DNA from: Deltaproteobacteria bacterium
Lineage (GTDB): Bacteria; Desulfobacterota; Binatia; UBA1149; CAITLU01
NCBI GenBank assembly: GCA_016218925.1
Contig: JACRCR010000160.1
Location: 23,677-87,676 of the forward strand
Direction of reading: 5' to 3'
DNA length: 64,000 nt
In this document: piece after piece, positions 40,329 through 64,000 of the stretch
Position numbering within the stretch: the first letter of the stretch is position 1
Layout of the letters: each line of letters starts with the position of its first letter
Translations under genes and position numbers: made by a program
Notes under the pieces: generated by a model
Seen by the model: only the letters and a program-made list of their open reading frames with translations
Database searches by the model: none
What the model was told of the DNA's origin: nothing

Positions 40329-40345
40329 GGGTCGTCGGGTCGAAC

Positions 40346-46371: not shown

Positions 46372-49300
46372 ATGAGGGGATTTCGGTGTCACGCGCACGG
46401 GGAACGTGCGAACACGTCTCGGGCCTTCGGCCGCGTGCGCCTGTTGTGGGGCGGACTGCTGTTGCTCGGTGTTCTCGCCGCGCCGGCGACCGCCGCCGCG
46501 GTTTGCGGCGACGCGATACTAGACCCTAGCGAAGAGTGTGATCCGGGCGGCGGCACCTACGTCGACGGCGACCCGGCCAACGGTTCGTGTAGTACCGGCG
46601 GCGACTGCTTCTACGAATTCAGTTGCTGCAAGTTCAACTGTCAGTTCGTCGGCGAGGGTGCGACCTGCTTCGACGACAATCCGTGCACGACCGCCGATCA
46701 ATGCGACCAGGTCGGCAACTGCGGCGGCAACAACGTACCTGACGGCGGGCTCTGCGATGACGGATTGTTCTGCACGGTCGGCGACCAGTGCACCGCCGGG
46801 GTCTGCTCGGGGCCGGCCTACGATTGCAGTGACTCCAACGTGTGTACCGACGACTCGTGCAACGAAGCCGCCGATTCGTGCTCGAACGTGCCGAACGCCG
46901 TGGCGTGCGACGATGGCCTGTTTTGCTCGACCGGCGATCAGTGTTCGGGCGGCGCCTGCTCGGGGACGGCGCTCAGTTGCGACGATTCGAACGCCTGTAC
47001 GGACGACTCGTGCGACGAGGTGGGCGACGCCTGCATCAACGCGAACAACGCCAATGCCTGCGACGACGGCCTGTTCTGTACGGTGAGCGATGCCTGCACC
47101 GGCGGCCTCTGCACCGGCCCGGCCCGCGACTGCGGCGACTCCAACGCGTGCACCGACGACTCGTGCAACGAAGCGGGGGACGTCTGCATCAACGCCGACA
47201 ACGCCGACCCGTGCGACGACGGCCTGTTCTGCACGGTGAGCGACGCGTGCGCGGGCGGCGTCTGCACCGGCGCGGCGCGAGACTGCGGCGATGCCAACGT
47301 CTGTACCGACGACGTGTGCGATGAAGGCACAGCCGCGTGCAGCAACCCGAACAATACCGCCGCTTGCGATGATGGTCTGTTCTGCACGGCCACCGATAGC
47401 TGCTCGGCCGGCGCATGCGTGGGAAGCGGCAACGGCTGCGACGATGCCAATGCCTGCACCGACGATACCTGCATCGAGGTCGGGGCTCTGTGCCTGTACG
47501 CGAACAACGCGGCGGCGTGCGACGATTCCGACGCTTGCACGACGCTCGATACCTGCTCGGGCGGCGTGTGCGTGGGCGGTCCGGCGCTGGTGTGCGACGA
47601 CGCCAACATCTGCACCGACGACTCGTGCAGCCCCTCGCTCGGGTGCGTCTTCGACGGCAACGGGATTTCGTGCGACGATGGGCTCTTCTGCACGCTGAAC
47701 GACCGTTGCCGCGCCACCGTGTGCTCGGGCGCCGCGCGCGACTGCGGCGACGGGAACATCTGTACCAGCGATTTCTGCGACGAGGCCGGCTCGGCCTGCG
47801 GCAGCGCGTTCAATACCGTCGAGTGCGACGACGGCGACGCCTGCACGGTCGACGACCGCTGCAGCGGCGGCTCGTGCGTGCCTGGCGCGGCCATGACGTG
47901 CGACGATTTCAACGTCTGCACCGACGAGGCTTGCGATCCGAGCGTTGGATGCCAGTTCTTCTCCAACTCCCTGGCGTGCGACGACGCCGATCCTTGCACG
48001 CCGGCCGATACCTGCGTGGCGGGCGCCTGCCAGGGCAGCGGCTCGCTTTGCGGCAACGGGATCGGCGACGGCGGCTGCGGTGAGACCTGCGACGACGGCA
48101 ACATCGCCGACGGCGACGGCTGCTCCGGCGCGTGTCAGCTCGAGCTTCGCGCGGAGCTGTCGCTGGCCAAGGTGGACGATTTCGACCCGGTTCTTCCGGG
48201 CGGCCTCCTCACATACACGCTGGCGTACTCGAACAGCGGCGAGGCCCCGCTGACGGGCGTTGTGGTGTCCGATCTGGTCGATCCCAGTACTACGTTCTTT
48301 GCGGCGCAGCCGGCGCCCGACGATGGCACGCAGGATCGCTGGACGATCGGCGCGCTCACACCCGGACAGAGCGGTAGCATCCAAGTCACGGTGGTCGCCG
48401 GCGCCGATCTCGGCGACGGCGACATCCTGCTCAACGCAGCCGAGATCGCTGCCGACGACGGCACGCTCGCACAAGCTACCGAGTCGACAGCGGTGTCGGC
48501 GAGCGTGAGCACGGCGCTGCTTCGGGTCGACGTCGCTCCGTATCTTGCGTCGTCGCGCGCGCCGGGATCGCTGATCTACGCGGTGTTCTATCGAAACGAG
48601 GGCTCGGACACGGCGGTGGCGGCAACGCTCGCGTTGGAGTTCCCCGCCGGCATGACTTTCGGTGGCGCCACGTTGGCGCCGGCGTCGCAATCGCAGGCGA
48701 CTGCGTCGTGGTCGCTCGGGGACCTCGAGCCGGGCGCGCGCGGGGGCTTCGTAGTTGCGGCGCGCGTGACCTCGGGTCTCGCCGCTGGCACCTCGCTGGC
48801 GGCGTGCGCGCAGCTCAGCGGTCTTGCGCCGGAGGGGGCCCTGGACGGGCCGGGTCTGCATGGCGGTTCCTGTGCGACCGCGAACGTCATCGGGCAGTGC
48901 GATCTGTGGTTCGCCAAGACGCACGAGCCGGTCGCGACCCTGCCCGGCGTAACCGGCGCGGTGTTGTCGCCGGCGGCGACCGCTCCGGTTGGTGCCGGCG
49001 GCGATGCGCTGGCGCGAGCTTCCGTCCGGGTGCTGGCGTCGCGTCTGTCGGGTAAGCAGCGGGCGCTGGTGATGCGTGCCGTCGATCCGCCGCACACGGC
49101 GACCGTCGCAGGCAACCGCAACGCGCGCGCCGGCGGCGGTGTGAGCTACTCGATCCGTTACAAGAACATCACGGTCACCAATTCTCTCGACGTCACGGTT
49201 GCGGATGCCGTCACGCTGACGCTGATCGCTCCGGCGCCGGCGTCGAGGGTGGGAAACTCGCTTCATTGGGACAACCTGGTGTCGCCGAGCGGCGCGGTGG

Positions 49301-50847: not shown

Positions 50848-51026
50848 CCGCCACGAAGAGTCGCAGCGCGTGAGGGCGCCTCCGCGCCACGACGTTCACC
50901 GTTCTGGAGCAGTGCCCGCAGACTGGGGCGGCCTGCCGGCAGAGGGCGGCCTCGACGCCGGCACTCCGGTCAGGCCAGGCTCGCCGCGCCCGGTTTGACG
51001 CCAGCCATCGGCTCGCGCTAAAAGAG

Positions 51027-51040
51027 AACGAATGTTCGTT
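51027..51040. promoter_or_regulatory. Putative TetR operator next to a sigma70-like promoter
   Basis: Inverted repeat AACGAA-TG-TTCGTT; TTGACG (50995) and TAAAAG (51019) upstream. Confidence 0.6.
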
Positions 51041-51985
51041 TTGCATAGCGTGGCGCCGCGGGCGAGCCGCACGGCGCAGTTCATGGCCCTGTTCCGGGCG
51101 CTCGAATCCTGCCGGCCGGCCACCCAGCGTCTGTTCTGCGACCCGTACGCAACCCTCTTCTTGCCGCCGTCGCTGAGGCTGGCGGTGTGGGTCGCAAGCC
51201 TTCCGCTGGTCGGCGCGCTGGTCCCGTGGTTCATCGACCGCCGCTGGCCGGGCGCCAGATCCTCGGGTGCGGCGCGTACGCGATTGATCGACGACGAGGT
51301 AGGCGCGGCTTTGCGGCGCGGCATCGCTCAGGTCGTACTGCTCGGCGCCGGTTTCGACGCACGCGCCCATCGACTACCCGGCATCGAGCGCGCCCGCGTC
51401 TTCGAGGTCGATCGTTCAGCGACCATGGGCGCGAAGCTCGCGGCTCTGCGTTCACGCATGGAGCGGCTGCCCGACCACGTCGTGCCGGTCGAAGTGGACT
51501 TCGAGCGTAACGACCTGCAGCAGGCGCTGGCGGCGGCGGGCTTTCGCCGCGAGGTACCCGCGATGGTCGTCTGGGAGGGAGTGACTAACTATCTGACCGC
51601 CGAGGCGGTTGACGCCACGCTGCGGGCGATCGCCGAGCTGACCGCACGGGGAAGCAGGCTGCTCTTCACTTACGTTCATCGCGGCGTGCTGGACGGCTCG
51701 ACGTCTTTTGATCAGACACGGCGTCTGTCGGCGACACTGCGCAGGGTTGGTGAGCCGTGGAGATTCGGCCTGGATCCCGCCGAGGTCGGCGCCTACCTGG
51801 CGGCGCGCGGTTTTGAGTTGCTGGCGGACCAGGGCGCGCGGGAATACCGAGCCAGGTATTTCGGCGAGCCCGGGCAAGGCTACGAGTTCTATCGCGCGGC
51901 GCTGGCCGAGCGGGATCACCGCGGCGCCGGCGCAGCGAGCGAGCGCGAGGACGACTCGAGGACCAGACAGCCATGCCCAAAGTAA
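51032..51985 (+). CDS. SAM-dependent methyltransferase (LCM/Ppm1-like)
   Basis: ASRTA, RALES, DPYA, RTRLID, QVVLLGAGFDARA, FEVD, WEGVTNYL. True start may be GTG 51050. Confidence 0.9.
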   Translation: MFVLHSVAPRASRTAQFMALFRALESCRPATQRLFCDPYATLFLPPSLRLAVWVASLPLVGALVPWFIDRRWPGARSSGAARTRLIDDEVGAALRRGIAQVVLLGAGFDARAHRLPGIERARVFEVDRSATMGAKLAALRSRMERLPDHVVPVEVDFERNDLQQALAAAGFRREVPAMVVWEGVTNYLTAEAVDATLRAIAELTARGSRLLFTYVHRGVLDGSTSFDQTRRLSATLRRVGEPWRFGLDPAEVGAYLAARGFELLADQGAREYRARYFGEPGQGYEFYRAALAERDHRGAGAASEREDDSRTRQPCPK

Positions 51986-52596
51986 GCGATACGCATCGCG
52001 CCGCGCGGCGCCGGCAAGTCCTGGACGCGGCCACCGAATGCTTCGCGCGGCAGGGATTCCACCGCACGACGATGCAGGACATCGTGCGCGAGGCCGGACT
52101 CAGTGCCGGCGCGGTCTACGGATACTTCGCCGGCAAAGACGACATCATCGAAGCGATCTCCGCCGAGCGGCACGAGCGCGAACGAGAACTCATCCGCCAG
52201 GCACGCGGCCTGCCCGCGGCGGAGGTCCTGCGGCGACTGGCGCGCGACTTCCTGGGAAGCCTGACCGAGCGCGACGAACAGAAGAGGCGCCGGGTAGGCG
52301 TGCAGGTCTGGGCCGAGGCGCTACGCGAGCCGCGAGTGATGCGCCTGGTTCGCCGCGGCATCGACGAGCCACTGCGCTTGCTGACGCAGGTGATCGAGCA
52401 GGCACAGGCGCGCGGCGAGATCGCGCCGGGGCTCGACGCGCAGGCGGTCTCGCGCGCGATCGTCGCGCTCTTTCACGGTTTCGTGCTGCAGCAGAGCTGG
52501 GATCCGCGCGTCAAAGTCGCGCCGTACCTGGCCGCTATCGAGGCGGTGATCGACGCCTTGCTCGCGCATCGAGGCGCCGCGGGCAAGAAAGCGTGA
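51973..52596 (+). CDS. TetR/AcrR family regulator
   Basis: MPKVS..CFARQGFHRTTMQDIVREAGLSAGAVYGYF. Confidence 0.93.
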   Translation: MPKVSDTHRAARRRQVLDAATECFARQGFHRTTMQDIVREAGLSAGAVYGYFAGKDDIIEAISAERHERERELIRQARGLPAAEVLRRLARDFLGSLTERDEQKRRRVGVQVWAEALREPRVMRLVRRGIDEPLRLLTQVIEQAQARGEIAPGLDAQAVSRAIVALFHGFVLQQSWDPRVKVAPYLAAIEAVIDALLAHRGAAGKKA

Positions 52597-53261
52597 CGCG
52601 CTCGGGCGTCCTGTTCGCACTGCTCGCGGCCGCCGTGGTGCTGGCAGTCCTGGTGTTCGGTTCGGCACTGCGCGAGATCGATGCCGAGGCTGTAGCTGTC
52701 CGCGTGCGCGCCGCAGGTCCGCTCGGACCCGCCGCGTTGCTGCTGCTGCTGGTGCTCCAGTGCGTGGTCGCCCCGCTCCCGTCGGAGCCGGTGATGGTCG
52801 CGGCCGGGTTCGTCTACGGCCCGGTGTTCGGCTTCGCGATCTCCTGGCTGGGTGTCGTGCTGGGGGCCGGCGTCTGTTTCGGTCTCGCGCGTCGTTTCGG
52901 GCGCCCGCTCGTGTTGCGCTTCGTTCATGCCAGGCACCTCGATGCGCTCGATGCCTATGTCGCCGATCGCGGCGTGGGTGCGGCCTTCGCGTTGGTGCTG
53001 TCGATCCGCCTGCTCGCGTTCATGTCGTTCGACATCGTCAGCTATGGCTGCGGGCTGACCGGCTTCCCGCTGCGCTGGTTCGTGCTGGCCAGCGGCCTCG
53101 GCGTCGTGCCTAAGGCTTTCGCGTTCACGTACGCGGGTGCCAGTGCCGCGTCGCGGCCCGGTTGGCTCGACGCCGTGATCCTCGCCGGCAGCTTCGGAGT
53201 GGTGTTTGCGGTCCCGTGGTTGGCGCGGCGCCTGTCGCGGCGCCGCGCGACCGGCGACTAA
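52593..53261 (+). CDS. TVP38/TMEM64 (DedA/VTT) membrane protein
   Basis: APLPSE, AGFVYG, F.LARRFGR, RLL..FDIVSYG.G; GTGA overlap. Confidence 0.88.
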   Translation: MTRSGVLFALLAAAVVLAVLVFGSALREIDAEAVAVRVRAAGPLGPAALLLLLVLQCVVAPLPSEPVMVAAGFVYGPVFGFAISWLGVVLGAGVCFGLARRFGRPLVLRFVHARHLDALDAYVADRGVGAAFALVLSIRLLAFMSFDIVSYGCGLTGFPLRWFVLASGLGVVPKAFAFTYAGASAASRPGWLDAVILAGSFGVVFAVPWLARRLSRRRATGD

Positions 53262-53758
53262 CGCCGTGCAGCAAGACGCCCGCTGCGCGCGGCCAGCGCG
53301 AGTTGCAGAACTCGGCCGGCGGCGCGCGGCGACGCAGGCCGGCACGGTGGCGCTGGGGATGAGTCGATCTGCGGAGCCGGCCAAATGGCCATTCTCTCCT
53401 TGCCAGGATCCGGCCATGAGGGGTAGATTGCGGCCGCACTGCGTCGGCTGATCATCCGTCTTTGTCGGCAACAAGGAGGGGTCCGATGGCGGGATGATCC
53501 CAACTGCGGTTGCTCAGCGGCCCGAGTGGCCGCGCCGTTCAGCGGAGAAGGCGCGGTCGCTCGCGACGGCTGCATCTTGCTGCTCCTGGTAACTCCGAGT
53601 TCAAGTTGGCCGGCTTCGTCTCGTCGGAACCGTGACCGTGCTGTTGGTGCAATGCACGATCGGCGTCGCCGCGGCGCCGAACCAGCTCAGTGCGGGTGGT
53701 CGATCGTGACGGGGTCGGCGTGATCGCAACCAAGCAAACCGAGAAAGGGAGGTGTCTC

Positions 53759-54241
53759 ATGCCAAGAGTCGGGTCAGGGAAAGTGGCTGTCGCTCTGGGT
53801 GCGGTGCTGCTTTTCGCCAGTCAGGGCTGGGCGTTCAATCCTCAGCCCGAACCGCCGGGGATATTCGGCGTGGTGAGTAGTCAGAGCATCGGTGTGAACA
53901 TCGTGAACGTCGGCGGCAAGCGCAACGAGACCTGTGACGTCAAGCTTCAGCTGCTGGATAGCGCCGGCGCGGTCGTGGAAGAACTTCAAGTCCGCGATCT
54001 TCAGGTGGCACGGTCCAGTTTGCTGGTGGTCGACGCCGGCCGGTTCGGTCTCGCGCCGGGGCAGCGCAAGCAGCTTCGTGCGGTGGTCGTGCCGCTCATT
54101 TCGCCGGCGCTGGGCCGTAGCTGCAACAGCCTGATGCTGCCTACTGTCGAGATCTTCGACACCACGACAGGAGAGTCCGGGTTGATCTTGAGTCCGGCGG
54201 TCTTGAAGGGATTCAATCCGCAGCCGGAACCTCCGGGGTGA
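53759..54241 (+). CDS. Secreted hypothetical protein with FNPQPEPPG at both mature termini (160 aa)
   Basis: AGGGAGG RBS, signal peptide ending GWA, motif at residues 26-34 and 152-160. Confidence 0.85.
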   Translation: MPRVGSGKVAVALGAVLLFASQGWAFNPQPEPPGIFGVVSSQSIGVNIVNVGGKRNETCDVKLQLLDSAGAVVEELQVRDLQVARSSLLVVDAGRFGLAPGQRKQLRAVVVPLISPALGRSCNSLMLPTVEIFDTTTGESGLILSPAVLKGFNPQPEPPG

Positions 54242-54480
54242 TGCCTGGCGGCGCGGGCGCCGGCGAGGCCGGCGGATGCCATCCCATGCCGTTGACAGCC
54301 TCGAGACAGAAGGAAGAAAGTGGCGCGCCAAGCTCGCGGTGCCGGTGCCGCTCGCCGTGCGCGATCGTCGCCACACGTTCCGGTGTTTGACTGGAGGGGA
54401 GGCTCTCGAAGGTGTGACGTCTTCATCGACAACCGGCAGCCCCACGCGAGATCGCGCGTGGCTGCCAAGGGGAACCAGCA

Positions 54481-54966
54481 ATGAGAACGGTGAGTGTGGG
54501 TTTGTTGATCCTGCTGTTTGCGGCCACCACCGCGAATGCGGCAGGCTTGGGGCCGCGCAAAGCCAGTGACCTCGTGATGATCACCGCTTCGAACACCGAT
54601 TGTCCCTTCGGCGGAGAGGCGATCGACCTGAGGTTCGCCGCCGATGGAACCACCAGCGCGCTCGTGATTCCGGCAGGGCAGGCGCTGGTGGTACAGAGCG
54701 TCCAGTGGCGGACGTTCGGTATCGTGGCGTACGAACATATCGAGCTTCTGCTGAGTCTGCAGACCGCCACCGGAGTCGCCACCGCAGTGGCCGGTGACGG
54801 CAGCATCTCGGATAGTCTGGGCGGCAACGCGGGGAGTATCCAGATCACTCCTGGGGTGATCGTTCGTCCCGGTCAGACACTGTGCACTACCTGCACGTCC
54901 GCGTTTTCCTCTCAGACGGTTCAATGCCTCGGCACTGCGCAGGGTTTTCTTACCAAGGACAAGTAG
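54481..54966 (+). CDS. Secreted hypothetical protein (161 aa)
   Basis: Signal peptide ..ATTANA, beta-rich body with four Cys; AAGGGG upstream. Confidence 0.75.
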   Translation: MRTVSVGLLILLFAATTANAAGLGPRKASDLVMITASNTDCPFGGEAIDLRFAADGTTSALVIPAGQALVVQSVQWRTFGIVAYEHIELLLSLQTATGVATAVAGDGSISDSLGGNAGSIQITPGVIVRPGQTLCTTCTSAFSSQTVQCLGTAQGFLTKDK

Positions 54967-55039
54967 CCGGCGGCCTGAGCCCGAGTAATGCCTCGCAGTT
55001 CCAGTCCGGCGAGAGCCTCGGCCCGGCGGCGGGCCGCGG

Positions 55040-56737
55040 TTACTTGCCGGAACCGGTAAGGAAGTAGCGGACCGCGAGCAACGCGGCGATGGCGTAGAAG
55101 CACGACGAAACGACCGGGAATCCCACCACCGTCCAGGTCTGGAAGTCCAACGCGAGCGTCCCGCACAGCGCGGCTGCGGCGATCATCAGCGCCAGCCGGT
55201 TGCGCTCGTTCACGCGCGCGTAGCTGCGCTGGATTTCCTCGATGTGGTTGATCTCGACGCCGAACTGAGCGCGGCCTGCACGTACGTCCTCGAGGATGGC
55301 ACGCGAGGTATCGGGCAGGCCGCTGAGGGTGTCGGACAGGTCGCGGATCGCGTCGTAGGCGCTTCGCGCGAGCCGGCGCGGGCTGTAGCGCTCGGCCAGC
55401 AGCGCCGCGACGTAAGGCTGTACGGCCGCGGTGATGTCCATGTCGGGGATCAACTGCTTGGCCACGCCTTCCATCGTGATCACGGCCTTGAACGTCATCG
55501 TGTAGTCGGCCGGCATCCGGATGCGATGCTTCAGCGCCATCGCCACCAGATCGGTGAAGAACGCGCTGAACTCGATCTCGCTGATCTTCTTTCCGCCGAA
55601 GCGATGTTCCATGCACTCGACCACGTCGGCCTCGAAAGGCTCGTACAGGCGAGTCGACTCCTTGCCGTGTACGCCGATCTTCCAGAACGTGCGCGCGACG
55701 GCGGGGAAGTCCTGGCTCACAAGCGCCGTCAGCAGATCGGCGAGGTGGTCGCGCTGGCGCATCGAGAGACTTCCGACCAGCCCGAAGTCGATGAAGCACA
55801 GCGTGTTGTCGTCGCGGACGAAGAGATTGCCTGGATGCAGATCGCCGTGGAAGAAGCCGTCGGCGTGGATCATCTGAAGGACCGCGTTCAGCGCGGTGCG
55901 GACCACGCGATCGACGTCGAAACGATCCGGCGTGATCGACGAGATCTTGGTGCCGTCGATGAATTCCATCGTCAGCACGCAGGCGGCGCAGCGGTCGCGG
56001 TACGGGATCGGGAAGTGGACGCCGGGCTGGTCGCTGAAGTTGCGACGGAAGCGCTCGATGTGATCGAGTTCGTTGCCGAAGTCGATCTCGCGGCGGATCG
56101 CCCGCTCGAACTCGGATACGACGCCGACCGCCGAGTAAAGGCGCGCGTCGGGAAAATTGGCTTCCAGCGCGCGGGCGAGGAAGCCCATGATCTCCACGTC
56201 GGCTTCGATCTGCTTCTTGATGCCGGCGCGCTGGACCTTCACCACGACCTCGACGTCGCGGCCGCGCAGGCGGGCGCGGTGAACCTGGGCTATCGACGCA
56301 CTGGCCAGGGGTTCGGGACGGAAATCGTCGAAGAGATCCTCGATCGTGCCGCCCAGTTCCGCCTCGACGATCTTGCGGACGTCGTCGAACGGCATCGGCG
56401 GGACCGCGTCCTGCAGCGTCTTCAGTTCGTCGATCCACTCGGGCGGGAGCAGGTCGGGCCGGGTGGACAGGATCTGTCCGAGCTTGACGAATGTCGGCCC
56501 CAGTTCGTGGATGGCCAGCAACACGCGCCGCTGGATCGGGAGGTGTTCGTCGTCGCCGGCGCGCAGCTCGAACAGTTTCTTGACCAGCCACTCGTCGCGC
56601 AGGCTCAGTTGCTGCAGGAACGCGCCGAACCCGTGCCGTGCCAGTACGGCGACGATCTGGCGGAAGCGGCCTACGTCGCGGAACACGGCTTCGCCGCTGC
56701 GCAGATTCTCGTAGGCTCGCTGTAGGGTCGTTGACAT
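55040..56737 (-). CDS. AarF/ABC1/UbiB family atypical kinase
   Basis: LGPTFVKLGQILSTRPDL, ASASIAQVH, VKVQR, FFHGDLHPGN, IDFG. Confidence 0.93.
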   Translation of the reverse strand: MSTTLQRAYENLRSGEAVFRDVGRFRQIVAVLARHGFGAFLQQLSLRDEWLVKKLFELRAGDDEHLPIQRRVLLAIHELGPTFVKLGQILSTRPDLLPPEWIDELKTLQDAVPPMPFDDVRKIVEAELGGTIEDLFDDFRPEPLASASIAQVHRARLRGRDVEVVVKVQRAGIKKQIEADVEIMGFLARALEANFPDARLYSAVGVVSEFERAIRREIDFGNELDHIERFRRNFSDQPGVHFPIPYRDRCAACVLTMEFIDGTKISSITPDRFDVDRVVRTALNAVLQMIHADGFFHGDLHPGNLFVRDDNTLCFIDFGLVGSLSMRQRDHLADLLTALVSQDFPAVARTFWKIGVHGKESTRLYEPFEADVVECMEHRFGGKKISEIEFSAFFTDLVAMALKHRIRMPADYTMTFKAVITMEGVAKQLIPDMDITAAVQPYVAALLAERYSPRRLARSAYDAIRDLSDTLSGLPDTSRAILEDVRAGRAQFGVEINHIEEIQRSYARVNERNRLALMIAAAALCGTLALDFQTWTVVGFPVVSSCFYAIAALLAVRYFLTGSGK

Positions 56738-56797
56738 CCGGAACGAGTACTCACCGACACAGTAACGGCGGAAGCGGTTCGCGTCTACCGCGCTTGA

Positions 56798-57694
56798 TCA
56801 TGGCGACGGCTTCTGCGTGGCGTTCCTGACCATCGAAAGGAACACCCCGGCCGCTGCGCTGAGACGTACGTCTTTGCGATAAAGCACGAACAGTTCTCGC
56901 GAGATCTGCATGTTCTGCGCTTTCACTACGGCGAGGCGGCCCGCCTGCACTTCCCAGTCGACCGCGATACGCGAGACTGCGGCGATGCCCAGGCCCGCGG
57001 CGACGGTGTGCTTGACCGCTTCGACGGAATCCAGCTCGAGATAGGGCTGCCAGCTCGCGCCTCGTCGAACGAGCCACTGATCGAAAGCTCGCCTGGTTGC
57101 GGAGCCCTCCTCCCGGGCGATGTACTGGTCGTCGAGGATCTCCTGGATGGGCACCGCCCGCCGGCGCGCGAGGCGATGCGTCGGTGCAGCGATGAGACAG
57201 ATGGCATCGTTCGCGAATACCTCGGTCGTCGTATGGTTCGTGTCGACGCGCTCTCCCACAAAGCCGAGATCGAGCTCGCCACGAACCACTTTGCCTTCGA
57301 TCGCGCGCGAGTTGGCGATCTCGTAGCGAAGGTCCACGCCAGGATACTCGCCATGAAACGCGGCGAGCGTTGGCGGAAGCATGTACGTCCCGGGCGTGGA
57401 GCTGGCGCCCACGCGGATCTCGCCGCGGCGCAGTTGGCCCAGATCCTCGAGCGCGGCGCGCACGCTGCGGACCTGCCCGATCAGCCGCGCGCCCTCCTCG
57501 AGCAGCAGTTCTCCCTGGGCGGTCAGCCGCACGCGACGCCCAGCCTGCTGGAACAGCTTCACCCCGAGGTCTTCTTCGAGGCGCTGTACCTGCCGCGAGA
57601 CGGCGGGCTGCGTGAGATGACGGACGGCGGCGGCCTCGGTGAAGCTGGCGGCGCGGGCCACGGCGAGAAAGGTCTCCAGATAATCTATATCCAT
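56798..57694 (-). CDS. LysR family regulator (CysL / selenium-associated type)
   Basis: SFTEAA...LTQPAVS.QV..LE HTH, IRVGASSTPGTYMLP, REEGSATR; divergent from the tauE-selD operon. Confidence 0.92.
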   Translation of the reverse strand: MDIDYLETFLAVARAASFTEAAAVRHLTQPAVSRQVQRLEEDLGVKLFQQAGRRVRLTAQGELLLEEGARLIGQVRSVRAALEDLGQLRRGEIRVGASSTPGTYMLPPTLAAFHGEYPGVDLRYEIANSRAIEGKVVRGELDLGFVGERVDTNHTTTEVFANDAICLIAAPTHRLARRRAVPIQEILDDQYIAREEGSATRRAFDQWLVRRGASWQPYLELDSVEAVKHTVAAGLGIAAVSRIAVDWEVQAGRLAVVKAQNMQISRELFVLYRKDVRLSAAAGVFLSMVRNATQKPSP

Positions 57695-57707
57695 GCCGGT
57701 TTGTCAT
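57693..57707. promoter_or_regulatory. Putative LysR box (T-N11-A)
   Basis: ATG-CCGGTTTGT-CAT dyad overlapping the lysR start, followed by an AT-rich tract. Confidence 0.45.
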
Positions 57708-57767
57708 CCGAAGGATAGAAACAATTCATTTGTAGCATAGTGCCCTGAGCCCGTATGGTGCAAGCGG

Positions 57768-58580
57768 ATGCACGTCATGGATGGAAGCGCACCCGCGAGC
57801 CTCTTGATGTTGGTCGCCGGACTCGGATTCGGAGGCGGCGTGCTCTCGGGCCTGCTCGGCATCGGCGGCGGCATCCTGATGACCCCGCTGCTGCTCTTCG
57901 TCCCGGTGGCTTGCCGACTACCCGCGTTGGACATGCAGACGGTAGCCGGCCTGACGATCGTGCAGAGCCTGTTCGCCGGCCTGTCAGGACTCGCTTCGCA
58001 CCGCGAACGCGGGAACGTCCATTTCGGCCTGGCCCTGTGGCTCGGCGGCACGATGGTGGTCACGGCGTTCGGTGGCGCGTGGTGGTCGAGGGACGTCAGC
58101 TCGGAAACGTTGCTCGCGCTCTTTGCGGGTCTTGCAGTAGCCGCTGCCTGCTTGATGCTCGTCCCGGCCGCCCACGCCGACGAAGAGCGCGGCGCGGATC
58201 GCGTCTCGTTCGGCAGAGCGCGCGCTGTCGCAGTCGGGATCGTGATCGGCTTCACCGGCGGTATGGTCGGCCAGAGCGGGGCTTTCATGGTGGTGCCCGC
58301 GACGATCCACTTCCTGCGGGTCCCCGTGCGAACGGCGATCGGCACCACGCTCGCCGTGGTAGTGCTGGCGGCGCTGGCGGGAACCGCAGGCAAACTTTCA
58401 ACCGGGCAGGTCGTTCTGCCGCTGGTGCTGGCGCTCGTGCCTCCGACGATGATCGGTGCACGCATCGGCGCGCGGTGGAGCGGACGTCTGCGGCCGGATG
58501 TTCTGCGACGTGTGCTCGCGCTCGTCATCGCGGCTGCCGCGATGCGGATCTGCTACGAACTTCTCACTCGCGCGACGTGA
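57768..58580 (+). CDS. Sulfite exporter TauE/SafE family membrane protein
   Basis: SGLLGIGGGILMTP and the repeated GMVGQSGAF..P half; AIGTTL; ~8 TMs. Confidence 0.9.
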   Translation: MHVMDGSAPASLLMLVAGLGFGGGVLSGLLGIGGGILMTPLLLFVPVACRLPALDMQTVAGLTIVQSLFAGLSGLASHRERGNVHFGLALWLGGTMVVTAFGGAWWSRDVSSETLLALFAGLAVAAACLMLVPAAHADEERGADRVSFGRARAVAVGIVIGFTGGMVGQSGAFMVVPATIHFLRVPVRTAIGTTLAVVVLAALAGTAGKLSTGQVVLPLVLALVPPTMIGARIGARWSGRLRPDVLRRVLALVIAAAAMRICYELLTRAT

Positions 58581-58597
58581 CGAACAGGAGGACTGTG

Positions 58598-59692
58598 ATG
58601 AGCACCGAAGACAACCTCGACACGAAGACGATGACCGCCGCCGATGCGCCCGCAGCGTGCAGGCTCACGGAGATGAGCCACGGCGGTGGTTGAGGGTGCA
58701 AGATAGGGCCGGCGGCCCTACACGAAGCACTCAGCCATCTACCGCTCATCACCGATCCGCGCGTGCTGGTGGGAATAAATACGGGCGACGACGCAGCGGT
58801 GATCCGCCTGCGTGATGACCTCGCGCTCGTCCTGACGGTGGATTTTTTCACGCCGGTGGTGGACGACCCCTACGATTTCGGTCAGGTCGCGGCGGCGAAT
58901 TCACTCAGCGACGTCTACGCGATGGGAGGAGTTCCACTCTCCGCGCTTTCGATCATCGGTTTCCCCGCTACGAGCACACCGCTCGACGTGATGGGACGCA
59001 TTCTTCGGGGCGCGGCCGACAAGGCCAAGGAGGCCGGCATCGAGATCGTCGGCGGCCACTCGGTAGAGGATCCGGAGCCCAAGTTCGGTCTGGCTGTGAC
59101 GGGGACGATCCATCCGGACCGGATACTAGCCAACCACGGGGCGCGGCCGGGCGACGCGTTGTTTCTCACCAAGCCTCTCGGATCCGGCGTTCTGACGACA
59201 GCGATCAAGCGCGGCCTGCTCGACCATGCCGAGATCGCTGAGGTCACGCGCGTGATGGCGACGCTGAACGCGGCAGCTTCCGAAGCAGCGCTCGGCGCGC
59301 AGGCGCACGCGTGTACCGACGTGACCGGCTTCGGGTTGCTCGGACACGTGCGTGGCATGCTCCAGGGTCGTGGTCTCGGTGTCAGCCTCGGCGCCGGCGC
59401 GATCCCGCGGCTCGGACGCGTCTCCGATCTCTTGCGCGACGGCGTGTGGCCCGGCGGAACGCAGCGCAATCTCGACTACTACGGCCCTTGGTTGCGGCTC
59501 GAACCCGGTGCGCCGCAGGACACGAGGCTCCTCGTCGCCGACCCGCAAACTTCCGGCGGGCTGCTGATCGCGGTCGCACCGGATCGGGCCGGCGAGCTGG
59601 CCGATCGTTTGCGAGACCTCGGTGTCGAGGGTTGGGCCGAGATCGGCCGGGTCACCGAAGAAGCCGGCGAAACGATATCGATCACAGCGTGA
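58598..59692 (+). CDS. selD: Selenide, water dikinase (selenophosphate synthetase), selenocysteine at codon 32
   Basis: AGGAGG RBS; RLTEMSHGGG-TGA(58691-58693)-GCKIGP stays in frame with DDAAV, TVDFFTPVVDDP, ANSLSDVYAMGG, TDVTGFGLLGH, DPQTSGGLL. Confidence 0.95.
58694..58732 (+). promoter_or_regulatory. Putative bacterial SECIS element
   Basis: Directly after UGA: lower stem GGGUGC/GCACUC, internal loop, upper stem UAGGGCC/GGCCCUA, G-containing apical loop. Confidence 0.75.
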
Positions 59693-59703
59693 CGGAGGAA
59701 TCC

Positions 59704-60513
59704 ATGGCAAGAATCGCGGTATTGGCGTATGGGACGAGCGCGTATGCGCTGTTTCTCGGGACGTTTCTTTACCTGATCGGTTTCGTCGGGAACCTCGTAG
59801 TGCCCAAGTCCATCGACTCCGGCGCCGGCGCAGGCACGCTCGCCGCGTGGATCGTCGACGCCGGATTGCTGGGTCTGTTTGCTCTGCAGCACAGCGTGAT
59901 GGCGCGTCCGGGCTTCAAGCGACGGTGGCTGCGCATCATTCCGATTGCCATCGAGCGAAGTACCTTCGTACTGCTCACCAATGTCATCCTCTGGTTGCTG
60001 TTCTGGCAGTGGCGGCCGATCGCGACGACCTTGTGGCAAGTACCGGGCGGCTTGGGGACAGCAGCCGTCCAGTCGATCTTCGTCGTTGCCTGGATCGTCG
60101 TCCTGCTCGGCACATTCATGACGAACCATTTCGAATTGTTCGGACTGCGACAGGTCTGGCTCCATTTCCGGGGAACCCCGTACGCGCCCATCGCGTTCAC
60201 CACGCGCGGGTTCTATCGCTACGTCAGGCATCCGCTCATGGTCGGGTTCCTGCTCGCGTTCTGGGCAACACCCCGGATGACGGCTGGCCACTTGATGTTC
60301 GCGTTCACGATGACCGCGTATGTTCTGTTCGGCATCCGCCTGGAAGAGCGCGATCTCGCCAAGGTCCTCGGGAAGTCGTACGAAGCCTATCGAGCTTCGA
60401 CCCCGGCTCTTCTTCCGCGCGGTCGATCGACGCGCGACGGTGCTCGAAGACCGCGTTCGAGTCGTCAACGACACGGCCGCATCCGGACCGAGCCGGTCGG
60501 ACGAGGAATCTAG
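59704..60513 (+). CDS. mddA: Methanethiol S-methyltransferase MddA-like membrane methyltransferase (ICMT/PEMT family)
   Basis: GFVGNLVVPKSIDSG, LFALQHSVMARPGFK, ERSTFVL, WQWRP, NHFELFGLRQV, YRYVRHPLM.GF..FWATP.MT.GHL, EERDL; GGAGG RBS. Confidence 0.85.
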   Translation: MARIAVLAYGTSAYALFLGTFLYLIGFVGNLVVPKSIDSGAGAGTLAAWIVDAGLLGLFALQHSVMARPGFKRRWLRIIPIAIERSTFVLLTNVILWLLFWQWRPIATTLWQVPGGLGTAAVQSIFVVAWIVVLLGTFMTNHFELFGLRQVWLHFRGTPYAPIAFTTRGFYRYVRHPLMVGFLLAFWATPRMTAGHLMFAFTMTAYVLFGIRLEERDLAKVLGKSYEAYRASTPALLPRGRSTRDGARRPRSSRQRHGRIRTEPVGRGI

Positions 60514-62552
60514 CTCCACATCGCACGTAGCCGGGCGCCGACGTCCACCCGCACGCTGCCTCGAGCAGTACCCGAACGATCCACGTCTCGGTTGCCGCAA
60601 TGCGTGCGCCGTTCGAAGCGGTCGAGGATCGAATCCGGGATGAAGCGTGTGCGCGGCGCGTAGACGTGGCGATCACCGTAGCGGTGCTGCTCGCGGGTGA
60701 AGAAACGCTGCGGGTGGATCAGGTACAGGTGATCGCGCGCGCGGGTCATCGCGACGTAGAGCAGGCGCCGCTCTTCCTCTATCTGGTCGCGGCTTCCGGT
60801 CGACATGTCGGATGGAATGCAGCCGTCGACGGCGTTGAGCAGGTAGACGACATCCCATTCCCTGCCCTTGGCCGAGTGGATCGTCGAGAGGATCAGGTAG
60901 TCCTCATCCAGGTGCGGAGACCCCGCCTCGTCTCCGCTCGCGCTCGGCGGGTCCAGTGTCAGCTCGGTCAGAAAGCGCTCGCGCGACGGATAGCCGGCTG
61001 CAATCTGTTCGAGCTGATCGAGGTCGCCGCCGCGCGCGTGCGCCGCATCGTAAAGCCGCTCGAGGTGCGGCTGATACCACTCGCGCACGGCGCCCATCTG
61101 TCCGTGCCACGTAGCGGCTCGGTGCAAGCCGGTGAGCAGGTTGCAGAGCGAGGGCCACTCTTCGGCCGCGGCCGGCGGGGCGCGGAATCCGTGCAGCGCG
61201 CCGAAGTCGAAACCCTGCGCGTCCAGCACCGCGATCGCGCGCCGCGCGTTACCCGGCCCCATGCCGGGCAGCAACTGCAACACACGAAACGCCGCGAGCG
61301 AGTCGTGAGGGTTCTCGACCCAGCGCAGGATGCACAGCAGATCCTTGACGTGCGCGGCTTCGAGGAACTTGAGGCCGCCGTACTTGATGAAAGGGATGTT
61401 GCGTCTCGCCAGCTCTACTTCGAGCTGATCGCTGTGGTGCGCGGTTCTGAAAAGGACCGCCTGCCGCTGTAGCGCTATGCCGGCCTCGCGATGCTCGAGG
61501 ATCCGTTCGACGACGTAGTCGACCTGTGCTGTCTCGTCCTCTGCGGTGACCAGTATCGGCCGTTGCTGTGATCCCCTGGTCGAGAACAGGTTCTTCGCGA
61601 AACGCTCGCTCGCCAGTGCGATCACCGCGTTGCAGGCGTCGAGGATCGGCACCGACGAGCGGTAGTTCTGCTCGAGCGTGATCACCGTGGCGGGCGGAAC
61701 GAAGCGGCTGGGGAAGTCCAGGATGTTGCGCACCGTCGCGGCGCGAAACGAGAAGATCGACTGGGCATCGTCGCCGACTACGGTCAGTCCCAGCCCATCG
61801 GGCCGCAGGCCGAGCAATACCGCGGCCTGCAGCGCGTTGGTGTCCTGATACTCGTCGACCAGCACGTGGTCGAAGCGTTCCCGTACCGCCTCGGCCAGCG
61901 CCGGTTCTTCCATCATCTGGTGCCAGTAGAGCAGCAGGTCGTCGTAGTCGAGCACGTTGCGCGTCTGCTTGGCCTCGACGTAGGCGCGAAACAACGCGCG
62001 AAGCTCATCGCTCCACGACTGGCACCACGGGAAGGCTGCGGCCAGCACTTGTTCCACCGAGCTCTGCGCGTTGACCGCGTGTGAGTAGATGGCCAGGCAG
62101 GTCGCCTTTTTCGGAAAGCGTCGCGTCTTGCGCGAGAGCCCCAGCTCGTCGCGCAGCAGGTTGATCAGATCCTCCGCGTCGGGGCGGTCCAGCACGGTGA
62201 ACGACGGTGCCAGGCCCACCGACTCGGCGTGCAGCCGCAGCAGGCGGTTGGCGATGCTGTGAAACGTTCCCGCCCAGCGCAGCGGTTGCGTGCGTGTCTG
62301 CGCGCAGATGCGCTGTGCGCGACGGGTCATCTCCTGCGCCGCGCGCCTGGTGAACGTCAGCAGCAGGACCCTGTCCGGGTCGGCCCCAGCGGCGATCAAG
62401 TGCGCGACCCGATGTGCCAGCGTCTTGGTCTTTCCGGCTCCGGCGCCGGCGATGATCAGCAGCGGCGGTGCGGCGGTGGCGCTGCCGTGCTCGACCGCGG
62501 CGCGCTGCGCCGGGTTCAGTTCCTCTACCAGCCTGCTCGGTTCCACCGCCAC
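60510..62552 (-). CDS. ATP-dependent DNA helicase, UvrD/Rep family
   Basis: LNPAQ, AGAGAGKT, LTFTRRAA, GTFH, VDEYQDTN, VGDDAQSI, NYRS, TIHSAKG.EW, EERRLLYVAMTRA. Confidence 0.95.
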   Translation of the reverse strand: MAVEPSRLVEELNPAQRAAVEHGSATAAPPLLIIAGAGAGKTKTLAHRVAHLIAAGADPDRVLLLTFTRRAAQEMTRRAQRICAQTRTQPLRWAGTFHSIANRLLRLHAESVGLAPSFTVLDRPDAEDLINLLRDELGLSRKTRRFPKKATCLAIYSHAVNAQSSVEQVLAAAFPWCQSWSDELRALFRAYVEAKQTRNVLDYDDLLLYWHQMMEEPALAEAVRERFDHVLVDEYQDTNALQAAVLLGLRPDGLGLTVVGDDAQSIFSFRAATVRNILDFPSRFVPPATVITLEQNYRSSVPILDACNAVIALASERFAKNLFSTRGSQQRPILVTAEDETAQVDYVVERILEHREAGIALQRQAVLFRTAHHSDQLEVELARRNIPFIKYGGLKFLEAAHVKDLLCILRWVENPHDSLAAFRVLQLLPGMGPGNARRAIAVLDAQGFDFGALHGFRAPPAAAEEWPSLCNLLTGLHRAATWHGQMGAVREWYQPHLERLYDAAHARGGDLDQLEQIAAGYPSRERFLTELTLDPPSASGDEAGSPHLDEDYLILSTIHSAKGREWDVVYLLNAVDGCIPSDMSTGSRDQIEEERRLLYVAMTRARDHLYLIHPQRFFTREQHRYGDRHVYAPRTRFIPDSILDRFERRTHCGNRDVDRSGTARGSVRVDVGARLRAMWS

Positions 62553-62870
62553 TCCCGGTCTCCTGTGCGCGCCTGTGCCGTGCGATCCGAAACGCGAGGG
62601 TGCACCGTACCATCGGCGAAGGAATGGCGAAAGTCAGAGGCGAAAGCGCCCGGCGGCGATCGCGACGAGCGCCGGCTGGCGAGCCGCCAGCCCCGCAAAA
62701 CCGGCCTTTATCATGTCGATGCGTGCCGAGTGCCACTTTCTCCCATCCGACCGTTCGGTAGACTCGGCGCCCAACGGAATAACAAGACTATCGACAGCCG
62801 ATGACGCGCGGCGTTTCGCAGCGGCAGCGGGCGAGGTCGAGTGACACGAGTGACACGGAGGAGCGCACAA

Positions 62871-64000
62871 ATGACGCAGACCAAGGGCAAGTGGGCCGAC
62901 GCGTATCGAGGCAAGTGGACCTGGGACAAGGTGACTTGGGGCAGCCACTCGGTCGACTGCTACCCGGGCGGTTGTTCGTGGCACGTCTACACCAAGGACG
63001 GCAGGATCGTCCGCGAAGAACAGGCGGCAGTGCTTCCGCCGATCGAAGCCGGCATCCCCGACATGAACCCGATGGGCTGCCAGAAGGGTGCATCGTGGAG
63101 TCACTGCCACTACTCGCCCGACCGCATCACCCAGCCGATGAAGCGCGTGGGCGAGCGCGGTGAAGGCAAGTTCGAGCCCGTCTCATGGGACGACGCACTG
63201 ACCGACATCGCCGACTCGATGCTCGATGCGATCGCCGACCAGGGCGGCGAATCGATCCTGACGCTGCTCACTCCCGAAGTCGGAGCGATCCCGGCACGCA
63301 TGTTCGCGTACCTGCTCGGCACCGCATCTACCGACGGCAACGCCGAGTTCCAGGATTTCAGCCCCGGTTGGCACATCACCTGGGGCCTGTTCAATCCGAC
63401 CTCGACGATGGACGACTGGTTCCTGGCCGAGCTCACGCTGATCTGGCACGCCAATCCCGTCTACACCAACATTCACTGGTACCACTACCTGGCCGAGTCC
63501 CGCTACAACGGCGGCGAAGTGGTGACGATCGCGCCCGATTTCAGTCCTTCGGCGATTCACGCCGACCACCACCAGCCCATTCGCATCGGCACCGACGCGG
63601 CGCTGGCACTGGCGATGTGCAAGGTGATCATCGATGCCGGGCTCTACAAGAAGCAGTTCGTGCAGGAGCAGACCGACCTGCCGTTGCTGATCCGTACCGA
63701 CAATGGGCGTTTCCTGCGCGGTAGCGACGTGTACGAAGGCGACCGCGAAGACCAGTTCTTCTGGTGGGATCGCCTGACCAACCTGCTCACTCCGGCGCCG
63801 CGCCACACGCTGGCTACGACCGGCGTCGACCCGGTGCTCGACGGAACTTACAAAGTCACGCTGCTCGACGGCACGACCGTCGAAGTAGAGCCGGTGTTCG
63901 CGAAGTTGCAGCGGCACCTCGAGGACTACACGCCGGAAAAAGCCGGCAAGATCTGCCAGATCCATCCCGACAACATTCGCAGCCTGGCGCGCAAGGTCGC
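62871..64000 (+). CDS. Molybdopterin oxidoreductase alpha subunit, DMSO-reductase type II (EBDH/S25DH/NarG-like), 3' partial
   Basis: Not in the ORF track because it has no stop. GGAGGAG RBS; MTQTKGKWADAYRGKWTWDKVTWGSHSVDCYPGGC..REEQ..PDMNPMGCQKG (FS0), PMKRVGERGEGK, IAPDFSPSAIHAD, GTDAAL, EQTDLP. Confidence 0.92.
   Translation, partial: MTQTKGKWADAYRGKWTWDKVTWGSHSVDCYPGGCSWHVYTKDGRIVREEQAAVLPPIEAGIPDMNPMGCQKGASWSHCHYSPDRITQPMKRVGERGEGKFEPVSWDDALTDIADSMLDAIADQGGESILTLLTPEVGAIPARMFAYLLGTASTDGNAEFQDFSPGWHITWGLFNPTSTMDDWFLAELTLIWHANPVYTNIHWYHYLAESRYNGGEVVTIAPDFSPSAIHADHHQPIRIGTDAALALAMCKVIIDAGLYKKQFVQEQTDLPLLIRTDNGRFLRGSDVYEGDREDQFFWWDRLTNLLTPAPRHTLATTGVDPVLDGTYKVTLLDGTTVEVEPVFAKLQRHLEDYTPEKAGKICQIHPDNIRSLARKV

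What the first reader, a model, noticed from the sequence alone, without database searches (positions are those of the whole stretch)
56798..60513. LysR <> tauE-selD(Sec)-mddA: candidate selenide partitioning and volatilisation operon
Seen: tauE, selD and an mddA-like gene are co-oriented with 17- and 11-nt gaps and strong RBSs before selD and mddA, divergent from a LysR gene with a T-N11-A dyad at its start. Established: SelD makes selenophosphate from selenide; MddA is a membrane SAM-dependent methyltransferase that converts methanethiol/H2S to dimethyl sulfide; TauE/SafE proteins move sulfur oxyanions. Inference: this MddA may methylate excess selenide or methylselenol to volatile dimethyl selenide, so one regulon would couple transport, assimilation and methylative detoxification of Se. 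No selA, selB, selC, selU or yqeB/C partner is in the window. I do not know of a described selD-mddA operon.
Basis: partly seen in the sequence, partly recalled or inferred. Interest (0 to 1): 0.8.

Follow-up and report, generated by a model that had tools for sequence, protein, structure and literature searches.

The report
Selenium operon with added MddA methyltransferase
A groundwater bacterium carries a regulator-permease-SelD selenium gene cassette that recurs in many relatives. Only in this lineage has it gained a gene for a sulfide/methanethiol methyltransferase, which may also turn surplus selenide into volatile dimethyl selenide, but that activity is untested.

Summary
LysR (56798-57694, -) is divergent from tauE (57768-58580), selD (58598-59692, in-frame UGA at 58691-58693) and mddA (59704-60513). 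The gaps are 17 and 11 nt, each with a Shine-Dalgarno site.

- **Family calls:** SelD, TauE and MddA pass their curated cut-offs. The LysR scores best against the selenium-associated LysR model, just under its cut-off.
- **Recurrent core:** LysR<>TauE+SelD is a recurring cassette. 15 of 20 TauE-ortholog loci in 401 sampled genomes of the phylum have selD adjacent. This scan had already noted selD-linked TauE permeases on other DNA (e1-1169376, e1-2446777).
- **Rare addition:** Of 201 other MddA loci, one has selD beside it. That is metagenome contig L096, the closest relative, with the same gene order, dS about 1 and dN/dS about 0.2.
- **Accessory status:** The operon lies at the edge of an 18-kb region missing at this site from the same-genus genome. 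The genome also has a separate selA-selB-selD(Cys) cluster.

MddA here looks canonical. Selenide methylation is chemically plausible but untested, and I found no paper linking MddA to selenium. Verdict: a real, lineage-restricted variant of a selenium cassette; the volatilisation idea is a testable hypothesis.

The parts
56798..57694 (-). LysR-family regulator of the selenium-associated type (LysR_Se-like), divergent from the operon
   Evidence: HTH_1 plus LysR_substrate domains. The best NCBIfam hit is NF040786 at 245.6 bits, against a cut-off of 250 and 52 bits above the next family. LysR genes of the same type sit beside 11 of 20 TauE-ortholog loci.
57719..57733 (.). Conserved intergenic box AAACAAT-N2-ATTT(GT); candidate operator or promoter element
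   Evidence: One match in the window against 0.05 expected. Invariant in 6 of 6 aligned LysR<>tauE intergenic regions, which come from 3 taxonomic families.
57768..58580 (+). TauE/SafE (TSUP) family permease of the selD-linked subfamily
   Evidence: PF01925 at 159 bits. Orthologs at E<=1e-35 are adjacent to selD in 15 of 20 loci.
58598..59692 (+). selD, selenide water dikinase, selenocysteine form (U32)
   Evidence: TIGR00476 at 400 bits; translation with TGA=U.
58691..58693 (+). In-frame UGA (Sec codon) of selD
   Evidence: The same codon is present in L096.
58694..58732 (+). SECIS-like hairpin directly after the UGA
   Evidence: MFE -20.9 kcal/mol, z -1.84. The 101 nt around the UGA are 95% identical to L096. 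Only 2 of 16 identical-residue codons in codons 33-50 carry a synonymous change, against about 40-55% elsewhere in the gene.
59704..60513 (+). mddA, membrane SAM-dependent methanethiol/H2S S-methyltransferase, with a roughly 30-residue Arg-rich C-terminal tail
   Evidence: NF045656 at 315.8 bits against a cut-off of 270, full model length. It holds all 58 invariant columns of a 29-sequence MddA alignment. It forms a clade with L096 and P0005, SH-like support 99.

Best explanation
A LysR_Se-type regulator controls, from a shared 73-nt intergenic region, one transcript: tauE-selD(Sec)-mddA.

The first two genes plus the regulator form a recurrent selenium cassette. A TSUP-family permease moves a selenium species across the membrane; I think uptake for assimilation is the more likely direction. 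SelD activates selenide to selenophosphate for the genome's selenocysteine machinery (selA, selB, tRNA-Sec elsewhere).

In this lineage a canonical MddA, acquired from outside the phylum, was joined to the 3' end. It is therefore made whenever the cassette is on. I propose that it methylates free chalcogenide anions at the membrane, HSe-/CH3Se- as well as its known substrates HS-/CH3S-. Selenide not captured by SelD would then leave the cell as volatile dimethyl selenide, an overflow valve.

Shown: gene identities, spacing, the Sec codon with its hairpin, recurrence of the cassette, and persistence of the three-gene order under purifying selection. Inferred: co-transcription, direction of transport, regulation by selenium status, and any activity of MddA on selenium.
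For: - Anatomy: gaps of 17 and 11 nt with Shine-Dalgarno sites, and no predicted + strand terminator.
- Cassette: 15 of 20 TauE-ortholog loci, in 15 of 19 genomes from 9 families with locus GC from 32 to 70%, have selD adjacent, and 11 of 20 have the LysR. In 8 of the 14 other genomes the TauE-linked selD is the only selD found. That fits supply for assimilation better than detoxification.
- Regulatory box: a conserved intergenic box is present.
- Persistence: the three-gene order is kept in L096 at 74/74/66% amino-acid identity. dS is 0.74, 1.04 and 1.26, and dN/dS is 0.24, 0.16 and 0.20 for tauE, selD and mddA.
- Clade: the two selD-linked MddAs, plus P0005 of unknown context, form one clade among 201 MddA rows with support 99.
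- Rarity in the phylum: true MddA is found in 2 of 401 genomes of this phylum. Its arrival inside a selenium operon is therefore not a by-product of MddA being common there.
- Chemistry (established knowledge, recalled): selenide and selenols are stronger nucleophiles than their sulfur analogues. The bacterial thiol methyltransferases bTPMT and MmtA are reported to produce DMSe and DMDSe (passage in review PMC11422209).
- Known MddA role: methylation and detoxification of H2S and MeSH (passages in PMC11445057 and PMC12904073).
Against: - No general link exists between MddA and selenium genes: 0 of 80 genome loci, 1 of 80 metagenome loci, 0 of 40 Acidobacteriota loci and 0 of 1 (G297) have selD nearby.
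- 0 of 60 Acidobacteriota selD loci have an MddA-like gene within 5 kb.
- The other 14 cassettes have no methyltransferase neighbour.
- The link counts as one evolutionary event, since the window and L096 share ancestry.
- The MddA shows no departure at any invariant or near-invariant family position, so nothing signals a new specificity.
- The genome encodes dsrAB, so MddA's ordinary substrate, sulfide, is probably abundant in this cell.
- If the cassette is induced by selenium scarcity, methylating selenide away would be counter-productive.
- No RNA data are available.
Confidence: 0.4

Rival explanations
1. Hitch-hiker. mddA does its ordinary job here, methylating H2S and methanethiol to DMS in a sulfide-producing bacterium. 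It landed behind selD during horizontal acquisition of this variable region. The operon position gives it a promoter but reflects no selenium function.
For: - The MddA is canonical.
- dsrAB is present.
- selD adjacency occurs in 1 of 201 other MddA loci.
- The cassette works without any methyltransferase in 14 other genomes.
- The operon sits at the edge of an 18.3-kb stretch (42218-60509) that is missing at this site from the same-genus genome G234. Synteny resumes exactly at the mddA/uvrD boundary.
- mddA has a lower GC content (0.62) than the genome (0.66).
Against: - The linkage has survived synonymous divergence of about 1 substitution per site with dN/dS of 0.20.
- It has been re-spaced, 11 nt here and 45 nt in L096, without being lost.
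- Placing a sulfide-detoxification gene under a selenium-type regulator would mis-time its expression.
- Few of the roughly 4000 genes in a genome act on chalcogenide anions, so chance placement of one next to the selenide-using enzyme is unlikely (inference).
- MddA is rare in this sulfidogenic phylum, in 2 of 401 genomes, so sulfide detoxification by MddA is not the phylum's habit.
Confidence: 0.35
2. Sulfide clearing for SelD. MddA is functionally tied to the cassette but acts on sulfur. It lowers local HS-/MeSH at the membrane so that the permease and SelD handle selenium rather than the far more abundant sulfur analogue.
For: - The known substrates of MddA are H2S and MeSH (passages in PMC11445057).
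- The organism has dsrAB.
- The operon linkage is conserved.
Against: - No evidence shows that sulfide limits SelD or the permease.
- The specific activities reported for MddA are low (passage in PMC12904073), which makes bulk sulfide removal in a sulfidogen implausible.
- The 14 other cassettes in equally sulfide-exposed relatives lack such a gene.
Confidence: 0.1
3. Not one unit. mddA is transcribed separately, or the TGA in selD terminates translation, so the apparent operon has no joint function.
For: No RNA run holds the stretch, so co-transcription is unproven. The hairpin z-score is modest at -1.84.
Against: - The 11-nt gap leaves no room for a promoter plus a terminator.
- selA, selB and tRNA-Sec are present.
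- The UGA and the following roughly 50 nt are almost invariant between the window and L096 although the genes are 26% diverged in protein.
- Most of the 150 selD matches listed for this phylum carry one in-frame TGA.
Confidence: 0.05

Closest known systems
LysR_Se / selD neighbourhoods (Lin et al. 2015, PMC5322559; NCBIfam NF040786)
   Same: A LysR-family regulator of the selenium-associated subfamily sits next to selD in a Sec-decoding organism (passages read).
   Different: The main text of that paper mentions no TauE/DUF81 permease and no methyltransferase (0 occurrences); its supplements could not be opened. The regulator here scores 4.4 bits under the curated cut-off.
selD-linked TauE/TSUP permease cassette
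   Same: The permease subfamily and SelD(Sec) are adjacent. I reproduced this independently in this phylum, in 15 of 20 loci.
   Different: Here the cassette has a LysR rather than an ArsR partner, a conserved intergenic box, and an extra mddA gene. I found no publication describing the cassette. The 2022 review says that no high-affinity selenium transporter is known.
MddA, methanethiol/H2S S-methyltransferase (NCBIfam NF045656; Carrion et al. 2015, recalled and not held in the library; described in PMC11445057)
   Same: Full-length match above the curated cut-off, with all family-invariant residues.
   Different: Its genomic context. Described mddA genes are not reported next to selenium genes, and in my survey 200 of 201 other loci are not. 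No selenium substrate has been reported for MddA in the papers I searched.
Bacterial selenium-volatilising methyltransferases bTPMT (tpm), MmtA and TehB (passage in review PMC11422209)
   Same: The proposed chemistry is the same: SAM-dependent methylation of reduced selenium to DMSe and DMDSe as detoxification.
   Different: Those are soluble class I methyltransferases unrelated to the membrane ICMT-like fold of MddA. None is reported inside a selD operon or under a selenium-type regulator.

Membership tests
SelD (TIGR00476) | Score above the curated cut-off, with AIRS N- and C-terminal domains | tested here: met
   400.1 bits against a cut-off of 125; PF00586 and PF02769 both present.
SelD (TIGR00476) | N-terminal glycine-rich loop with a Sec or Cys residue, and means to decode UGA | tested here: met
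   Motif HGGG-U-GCK with the UGA at 58691-58693 and a hairpin after it. selA, selB and tRNA-Sec are in the genome.
MddA (NF045656) | Equivalog score above the curated cut-off over the full model | tested here: met
   315.8 bits against a cut-off of 270, model positions 1-238 of 238.
MddA (NF045656) | Family-invariant residues, including the C-terminal R-H-P and E-E motifs shared with ICMT-like enzymes | tested here: met
   All 58 invariant columns of 29 aligned MddA proteins are kept, for example R175 H176 P177 and E214 E215. The assignment of these motifs to SAM binding is recalled, not tested.
MddA (NF045656) | SAM-dependent methylation of MeSH/H2S to DMS; proposed here also of selenide | not testable with these tools
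   Needs an enzyme assay. There is no solved relative in the PDB by sequence.
TauE/SafE, TSUP family (PF01925) | Pfam score above the gathering threshold over the full model | tested here: met
   159 bits against 32.6, model positions 2-236 of 237.
selD-linked TauE subfamily | Orthologs sit directly beside selD | tested here: met
   15 of 20 loci at E<=1e-35 in 401 genomes. 0 of 60 Acidobacteriota selD loci have it, so it is not universal.
LysR_Sec_metab (NF040786) | Score above the curated cut-off of 250 bits | tested here: not met
   245.6 bits, the best hit by a 52-bit margin. Five LysR genes beside other cassettes score 255, 231, 204, 196 and 180, so 1 of 5 passes. I therefore call it LysR_Se-like rather than a member.
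LysR_Sec_metab (NF040786) | Located next to selenium-utilisation genes in a Sec-decoding organism | tested here: met
   Divergent from tauE-selD; the Sec machinery is present.

The most novel reading that the evidence does not exclude
This MddA clade is a selenium-regulated selenide/methaneselenol methyltransferase. Together with a LysR_Se sensor, a dedicated TSUP selenium permease and Sec-SelD it would form the first genetically defined bacterial module that takes up selenium, assimilates it, and vents the excess as dimethyl selenide. By extension, the very abundant soil MddA enzymes would be an unrecognised source of volatile selenium.
Probability: 0.27. Interest if true: 0.75.

Novelty: new variant of a known kind. 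Interest (0 to 1): 0.5.

Why it matters
Two questions become testable with cloned genes.

First, which enzymes make volatile selenium in nature? The list in the 2024 review I read holds bTPMT, MmtA and TehB but not MddA. Yet mddA is reported in 5-76% of soil bacteria (passage in PMC11445057). If MddA accepts selenide, it could matter for selenium fluxes from soils and groundwater. This operon is the only genomic hint of such a role that I could find.

Second, the 2022 review states that no high-affinity selenium transporter has been identified. The LysR-TauE-SelD cassette seen here, with its conserved operator-like box, gives a candidate permease, a candidate sensor and a DNA site for direct assays.

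If the hitch-hiker reading is right, the finding is only a curiosity of operon evolution.

Tried and rejected
- **Expression data:** no RNA holder was listed for 57600-60600.
- **Contigs from four groundwater runs:** pieces 85-95% alike from a second study cover tauE and selD, with little cover over mddA. Contigs cannot show absence and no contig joins across the gap, so I draw nothing from this.
- **Rfam:** no family match in 56000-61000 at E<=1.
- **Inverted repeats:** none of 6 nt or more in the intergenic region. The single sigma-70-like hit overlaps the LysR start and was ignored.
- **PDB sequence search with MddA:** 0 hits.
it reported an MddA-like gene upstream of selD in an acidobacterium. 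This was not reproduced in my Acidobacteriota samples. 0 of 40 MddA loci have selD within 5 kb, and 0 of 60 selD loci have an MddA-like hit at E<=1e-3. Those 60 were picked from the top of the 150 listed rows out of 305 matches, skipping a genome flagged unpublished and loci at contig ends.
- **Other recurrent neighbours of the cassette:** ThiI, Amt, P-II, a histidine kinase and TetR each occur in one or two lineages only.
- **Rejected ideas:** the second selD does not serve selenouridine or the selenium cofactor, since selU, yqeB and yqeC were not found. I did not test for selenoneine genes.
- **Wasted or failed look-ups:** the word-start search 'seld'+'taue' matched 'seldom' and was useless. 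Carrion et al. 2015 is not held in the library.
Full report
**1. What is there**

The ORF list and the raw sequence confirm four genes:
- LysR, 56798-57694, minus strand.
- tauE, 57768-58580.
- selD, 58598-59692.
- mddA, 59704-60513.

The last three are on the plus strand. They are separated by 17 nt (containing AGGAGG) and 11 nt (containing GGAGG). A convergent UvrD-like helicase gene (60510-62552, minus strand) overlaps the mddA stop.

selD has an in-frame TGA at 58691-58693 within HGGG-U-GCKIGP.

- SelD: TIGR00476, 400 bits, cut-off 125.
- MddA: NF045656, 315.8 bits, cut-off 270, full length.
- TauE: PF01925, 159 bits, cut-off 32.6.
- The LysR scores best against NF040786, 'selenium metabolism-associated LysR', at 245.6 bits. 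This is just under the 250-bit cut-off and 52 bits ahead of the next family.

No + strand terminator is predicted in 57500-60800.

**2. The Sec codon is credible**

- The 39 nt after the UGA fold into a hairpin (-20.9 kcal/mol, z -1.84).
- The 101 nt around the UGA are 95% identical to the only other copy of the operon (L096), although the proteins are 74% identical.
- Among codons 33-50, only 2 of 16 identical-residue codons carry a synonymous change. Elsewhere in the gene the figures are 17 of 43, 32 of 83 and 65 of 115.
- The genome has selA and selB (contig C149) and a tRNA-Sec (contig C104).

**3. The genome already has a 'housekeeping' selD**

On C149, selA, selB and a second selD lie in a row on one strand. 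That SelD has Cys at the Sec position and is 51% identical to the window's SelD.

selU, yqeB and yqeC were not found in this 94%-complete assembly. Selenocysteine is therefore the only selenium trait detected.

**4. The operon is accessory**

- The same-genus genome G234 and the same-family genome G038 have one selD each, without TGA and 48-49% identical to the window's. Neither has mddA or a TauE ortholog.
- G234 contig C28 matches window 37688-42217 and then, 79 nt later, window 60510-63749, at 82-83% identity.
- Window 42218-60509 (18.3 kb) is therefore absent at that site in G234. The stretch 42249-46008 lies elsewhere in G234. The right-hand break falls exactly at the mddA/uvrD boundary.
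- The variable stretch also holds a radical-SAM/SPASM maturase, a sulfatase, a 1612-residue DUF11 protein, an LCM-type methyltransferase, a DedA/VTT protein and an ABC1 kinase. It holds no tRNA, and I saw no integrase among the ORFs scanned.

**5. LysR<>TauE+SelD is a recurrent cassette**

I searched 401 genomes sampled from the window's phylum with the TauE protein at E<=1e-35. This gave 20 loci in 19 genomes.
- selD is directly adjacent in 15 of the 20 loci, in either order.
- A LysR of the same type is adjacent in 11 of the 20.
- The 15 genomes come from 9 families, and locus GC ranges from 32 to 70%.
- In 8 of the 14 other genomes the linked selD is the only selD found.
- Five such LysR proteins score 255, 231, 204, 196 and 180 bits on NF040786.
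- Other neighbours differ from lineage to lineage (ThiI, Amt, P-II, a kinase, TetR), and none is a methyltransferase.

Two earlier notes of this scan (e1-1169376, e1-2446777) reported the same selD-linked permease in other phyla. My count is an independent reproduction. The cassette is not universal: 0 of 60 Acidobacteriota selD loci have such a TauE or LysR.

In the papers I could read I found no description of the cassette:
- Lin et al. 2015 (PMC5322559): passages read, 0 occurrences of TauE, DUF81 or methyltransferase in the main text.
- The 2022 review PMC9312934: 0 occurrences of TauE or TSUP, and it states that a high-affinity selenium transport system 'has not been identified'.
- Further searches found nothing.

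**6. A conserved intergenic box**

I extracted the 11 LysR-adjacent intergenic regions. The box AAACAAT-N2-ATTT is visible in 6 of them: the window, G365, G332, G021, G308 and G282. It is invariant when those 6 are aligned. They represent three families, four of the six belonging to one family, so independence is limited.

In the window the box is at 57719-57731. It is the only match in 64 kb allowing 1 mismatch, against 0.05 expected, and 5 of 100 shuffles reach one match.

**7. How often is mddA next to selD?**

- Best 80 MddA relatives in one-genome-per-species contigs (47-57% identity): 0 of 80 have selD, or the window-type TauE, within the flanks held. That scan was cut at 600 pattern matches, so it is a sample.
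- Best 80 in metagenome contigs: 1 of 80, namely L096.
- Acidobacteriota: MddA at E<=1e-50 in 39 of 371 sampled genomes, giving 40 loci, of which 0 of 40 have selD within 5 kb.
- Own phylum: MddA above the cut-off in 2 of 401 genomes, G000 and G297. In G297 mddA and selD are on different contigs.
- Overall: 1 of 201 other loci. At least one locus (G402/L041) was counted twice. 169 of the 201 have at least 1 kb upstream of mddA, and 146 have at least 1 kb on both sides.

The tallies include three genomes flagged unpublished (G452, G555, G427).

**8. The one other copy**

L096 is a 2759-nt metagenome contig. It carries:
- tauE, 24-827.
- selD, 844-1938, after a 16-nt gap, with a TGA at 937-939.
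- mddA, 1984-2721, after a 45-nt gap with an RBS.

Amino-acid identities to the window are 74, 74 and 66%. By the Nei-Gojobori method:

| Gene | dS | dN/dS |
|---|---|---|
| tauE | 0.74 | 0.24 |
| selD | 1.04 | 0.16 |
| mddA | 1.26 | 0.20 |

All three genes have therefore stayed functional and linked over a long divergence.

In a FastTree of 201 MddA rows, the window, L096 and P0005 form a clade with SH-like support 99. The rows were 199 loci plus the window and P0005; 2 loci were dropped for short or interrupted matches. P0005 is 88.6% identical to the L096 protein and its context is unknown. The sisters of this clade are unresolved, and G297's MddA (51.5% identical) is not close.

The selD-linked MddAs thus form one small clade, which counts as one evolutionary event.

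**9. What the MddA looks like**

It keeps all 58 invariant and 21 near-invariant positions of a 29-sequence MddA alignment, and it has no solved relative by sequence. Nothing marks a changed specificity. It carries a roughly 30-residue Arg-rich tail that relatives lack.

**10. Literature on MddA and selenium**

- Full-text search for 'MddA' plus 'selenium' gave 15 papers. By the titles and abstract openings listed, none is about selenium methylation by MddA.
- A six-term search with the selenium species listed no paper containing MddA among the 15 shown of 399.
- The MddH paper (PMC11445057) and the MddM paper (PMC12904073) have 0 occurrences of 'selen' in their main texts. Both describe MddA as an H2S/MeSH methyltransferase with a detoxifying role (passages).
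- A 2024 review of microbial selenium cycling names bTPMT, MmtA and TehB as selenium methylases and has 0 occurrences of MddA.
- The original MddA paper (Carrion et al. 2015) is not held and is cited from memory.

**11. Interpretation**

Solid points: this is a selenium cassette of regulator, permease and SelD, acquired as an accessory unit by a Sec-using, dsrAB-carrying groundwater bacterium. It was extended at its 3' end by a horizontally acquired, canonical mddA, almost certainly on the same transcript.

The open question is why mddA is there.

For a selenium role:
- MddA's substrates are the sulfur analogues of SelD's substrate.
- MddA is rare in this phylum, yet it arrived precisely here.
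- The link has survived long divergence.

Against a selenium role:
- It is a single event.
- Neither the MddA family nor the cassette family shows the association elsewhere.
- The enzyme looks ordinary.
- Sulfide is probably plentiful in this cell.

I put the overflow-valve (selenide methylation) reading at about 0.4, the hitch-hiker reading at about 0.35, sulfide clearing at 0.1 and 'not a unit' at 0.05.

**12. Verdict**

This is a new variant of a known kind of selenium gene cluster. It is worth an enzyme assay because a positive result would bear on the whole, very abundant MddA family. On present evidence it is a hypothesis resting on one conserved gene linkage.

Noticed in passing
window 42218-60509: An 18.3-kb stretch is absent at this site from the same-genus genome G234; 42249-46008 lies elsewhere in G234. 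It holds a radical-SAM/SPASM maturase plus sulfatase pair, a 1612-residue DUF11 surface-type protein, an LCM-family methyltransferase, a DedA/VTT membrane protein and an ABC1/UbiB kinase. No tRNA or integrase was seen.
   Followed up: partly
window 57719-57733; L195, L197, L199, L200, L207 intergenic regions: The box AAACAAT-N2-ATTT is conserved between LysR and tauE in 6 of 11 cassette intergenic regions from three families. It is a candidate LysR_Se operator. The other five regions (G002, G048, G284, G334, G136) have different AT-rich sequences.
   Followed up: partly
L206 (G098), L209 and L212 (G061), L210 (G281): The TauE-ortholog matches that are not next to selD each carry one in-frame stop (TGA in L209 and L210, TAA in L206 and L212).
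   Followed up: no
L213 9133-10299 and L215 8888-10054 (G002, G048): In two low-GC relatives a ThiI (tRNA 4-thiouridine sulfurtransferase family) gene follows selD by 10 nt in the LysR<>tauE-selD cassette. An ammonium transporter and a P-II gene lie further downstream.
   Followed up: no
G000 contig C149 9554-13846 (L267): The canonical selA-selB-selD cluster has a Cys-type SelD. The reading frame upstream of its conserved core is open and encodes Lys/Ala/Thr-rich repeats, so it may be an N-terminal extension or just intergenic read-through. selA is cut by the contig end, and its first part seems to lie on C131.
   Followed up: no
Acidobacteriota selD matches (e.g. G595:C33, G519:C37, G482:C11): Several of the highest-scoring selD matches without TGA lie in open frames of 735-817 residues, suggesting fused SelD proteins. 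These may be the known oxidoreductase-SelD fusion type.
   Followed up: no
window 60418-60513: The MddA here ends in a roughly 30-residue Arg-rich tail absent from its closest relatives (245 residues). Its stop overlaps the stop of the convergent uvrD-like gene exactly where synteny with G234 resumes.
   Followed up: no
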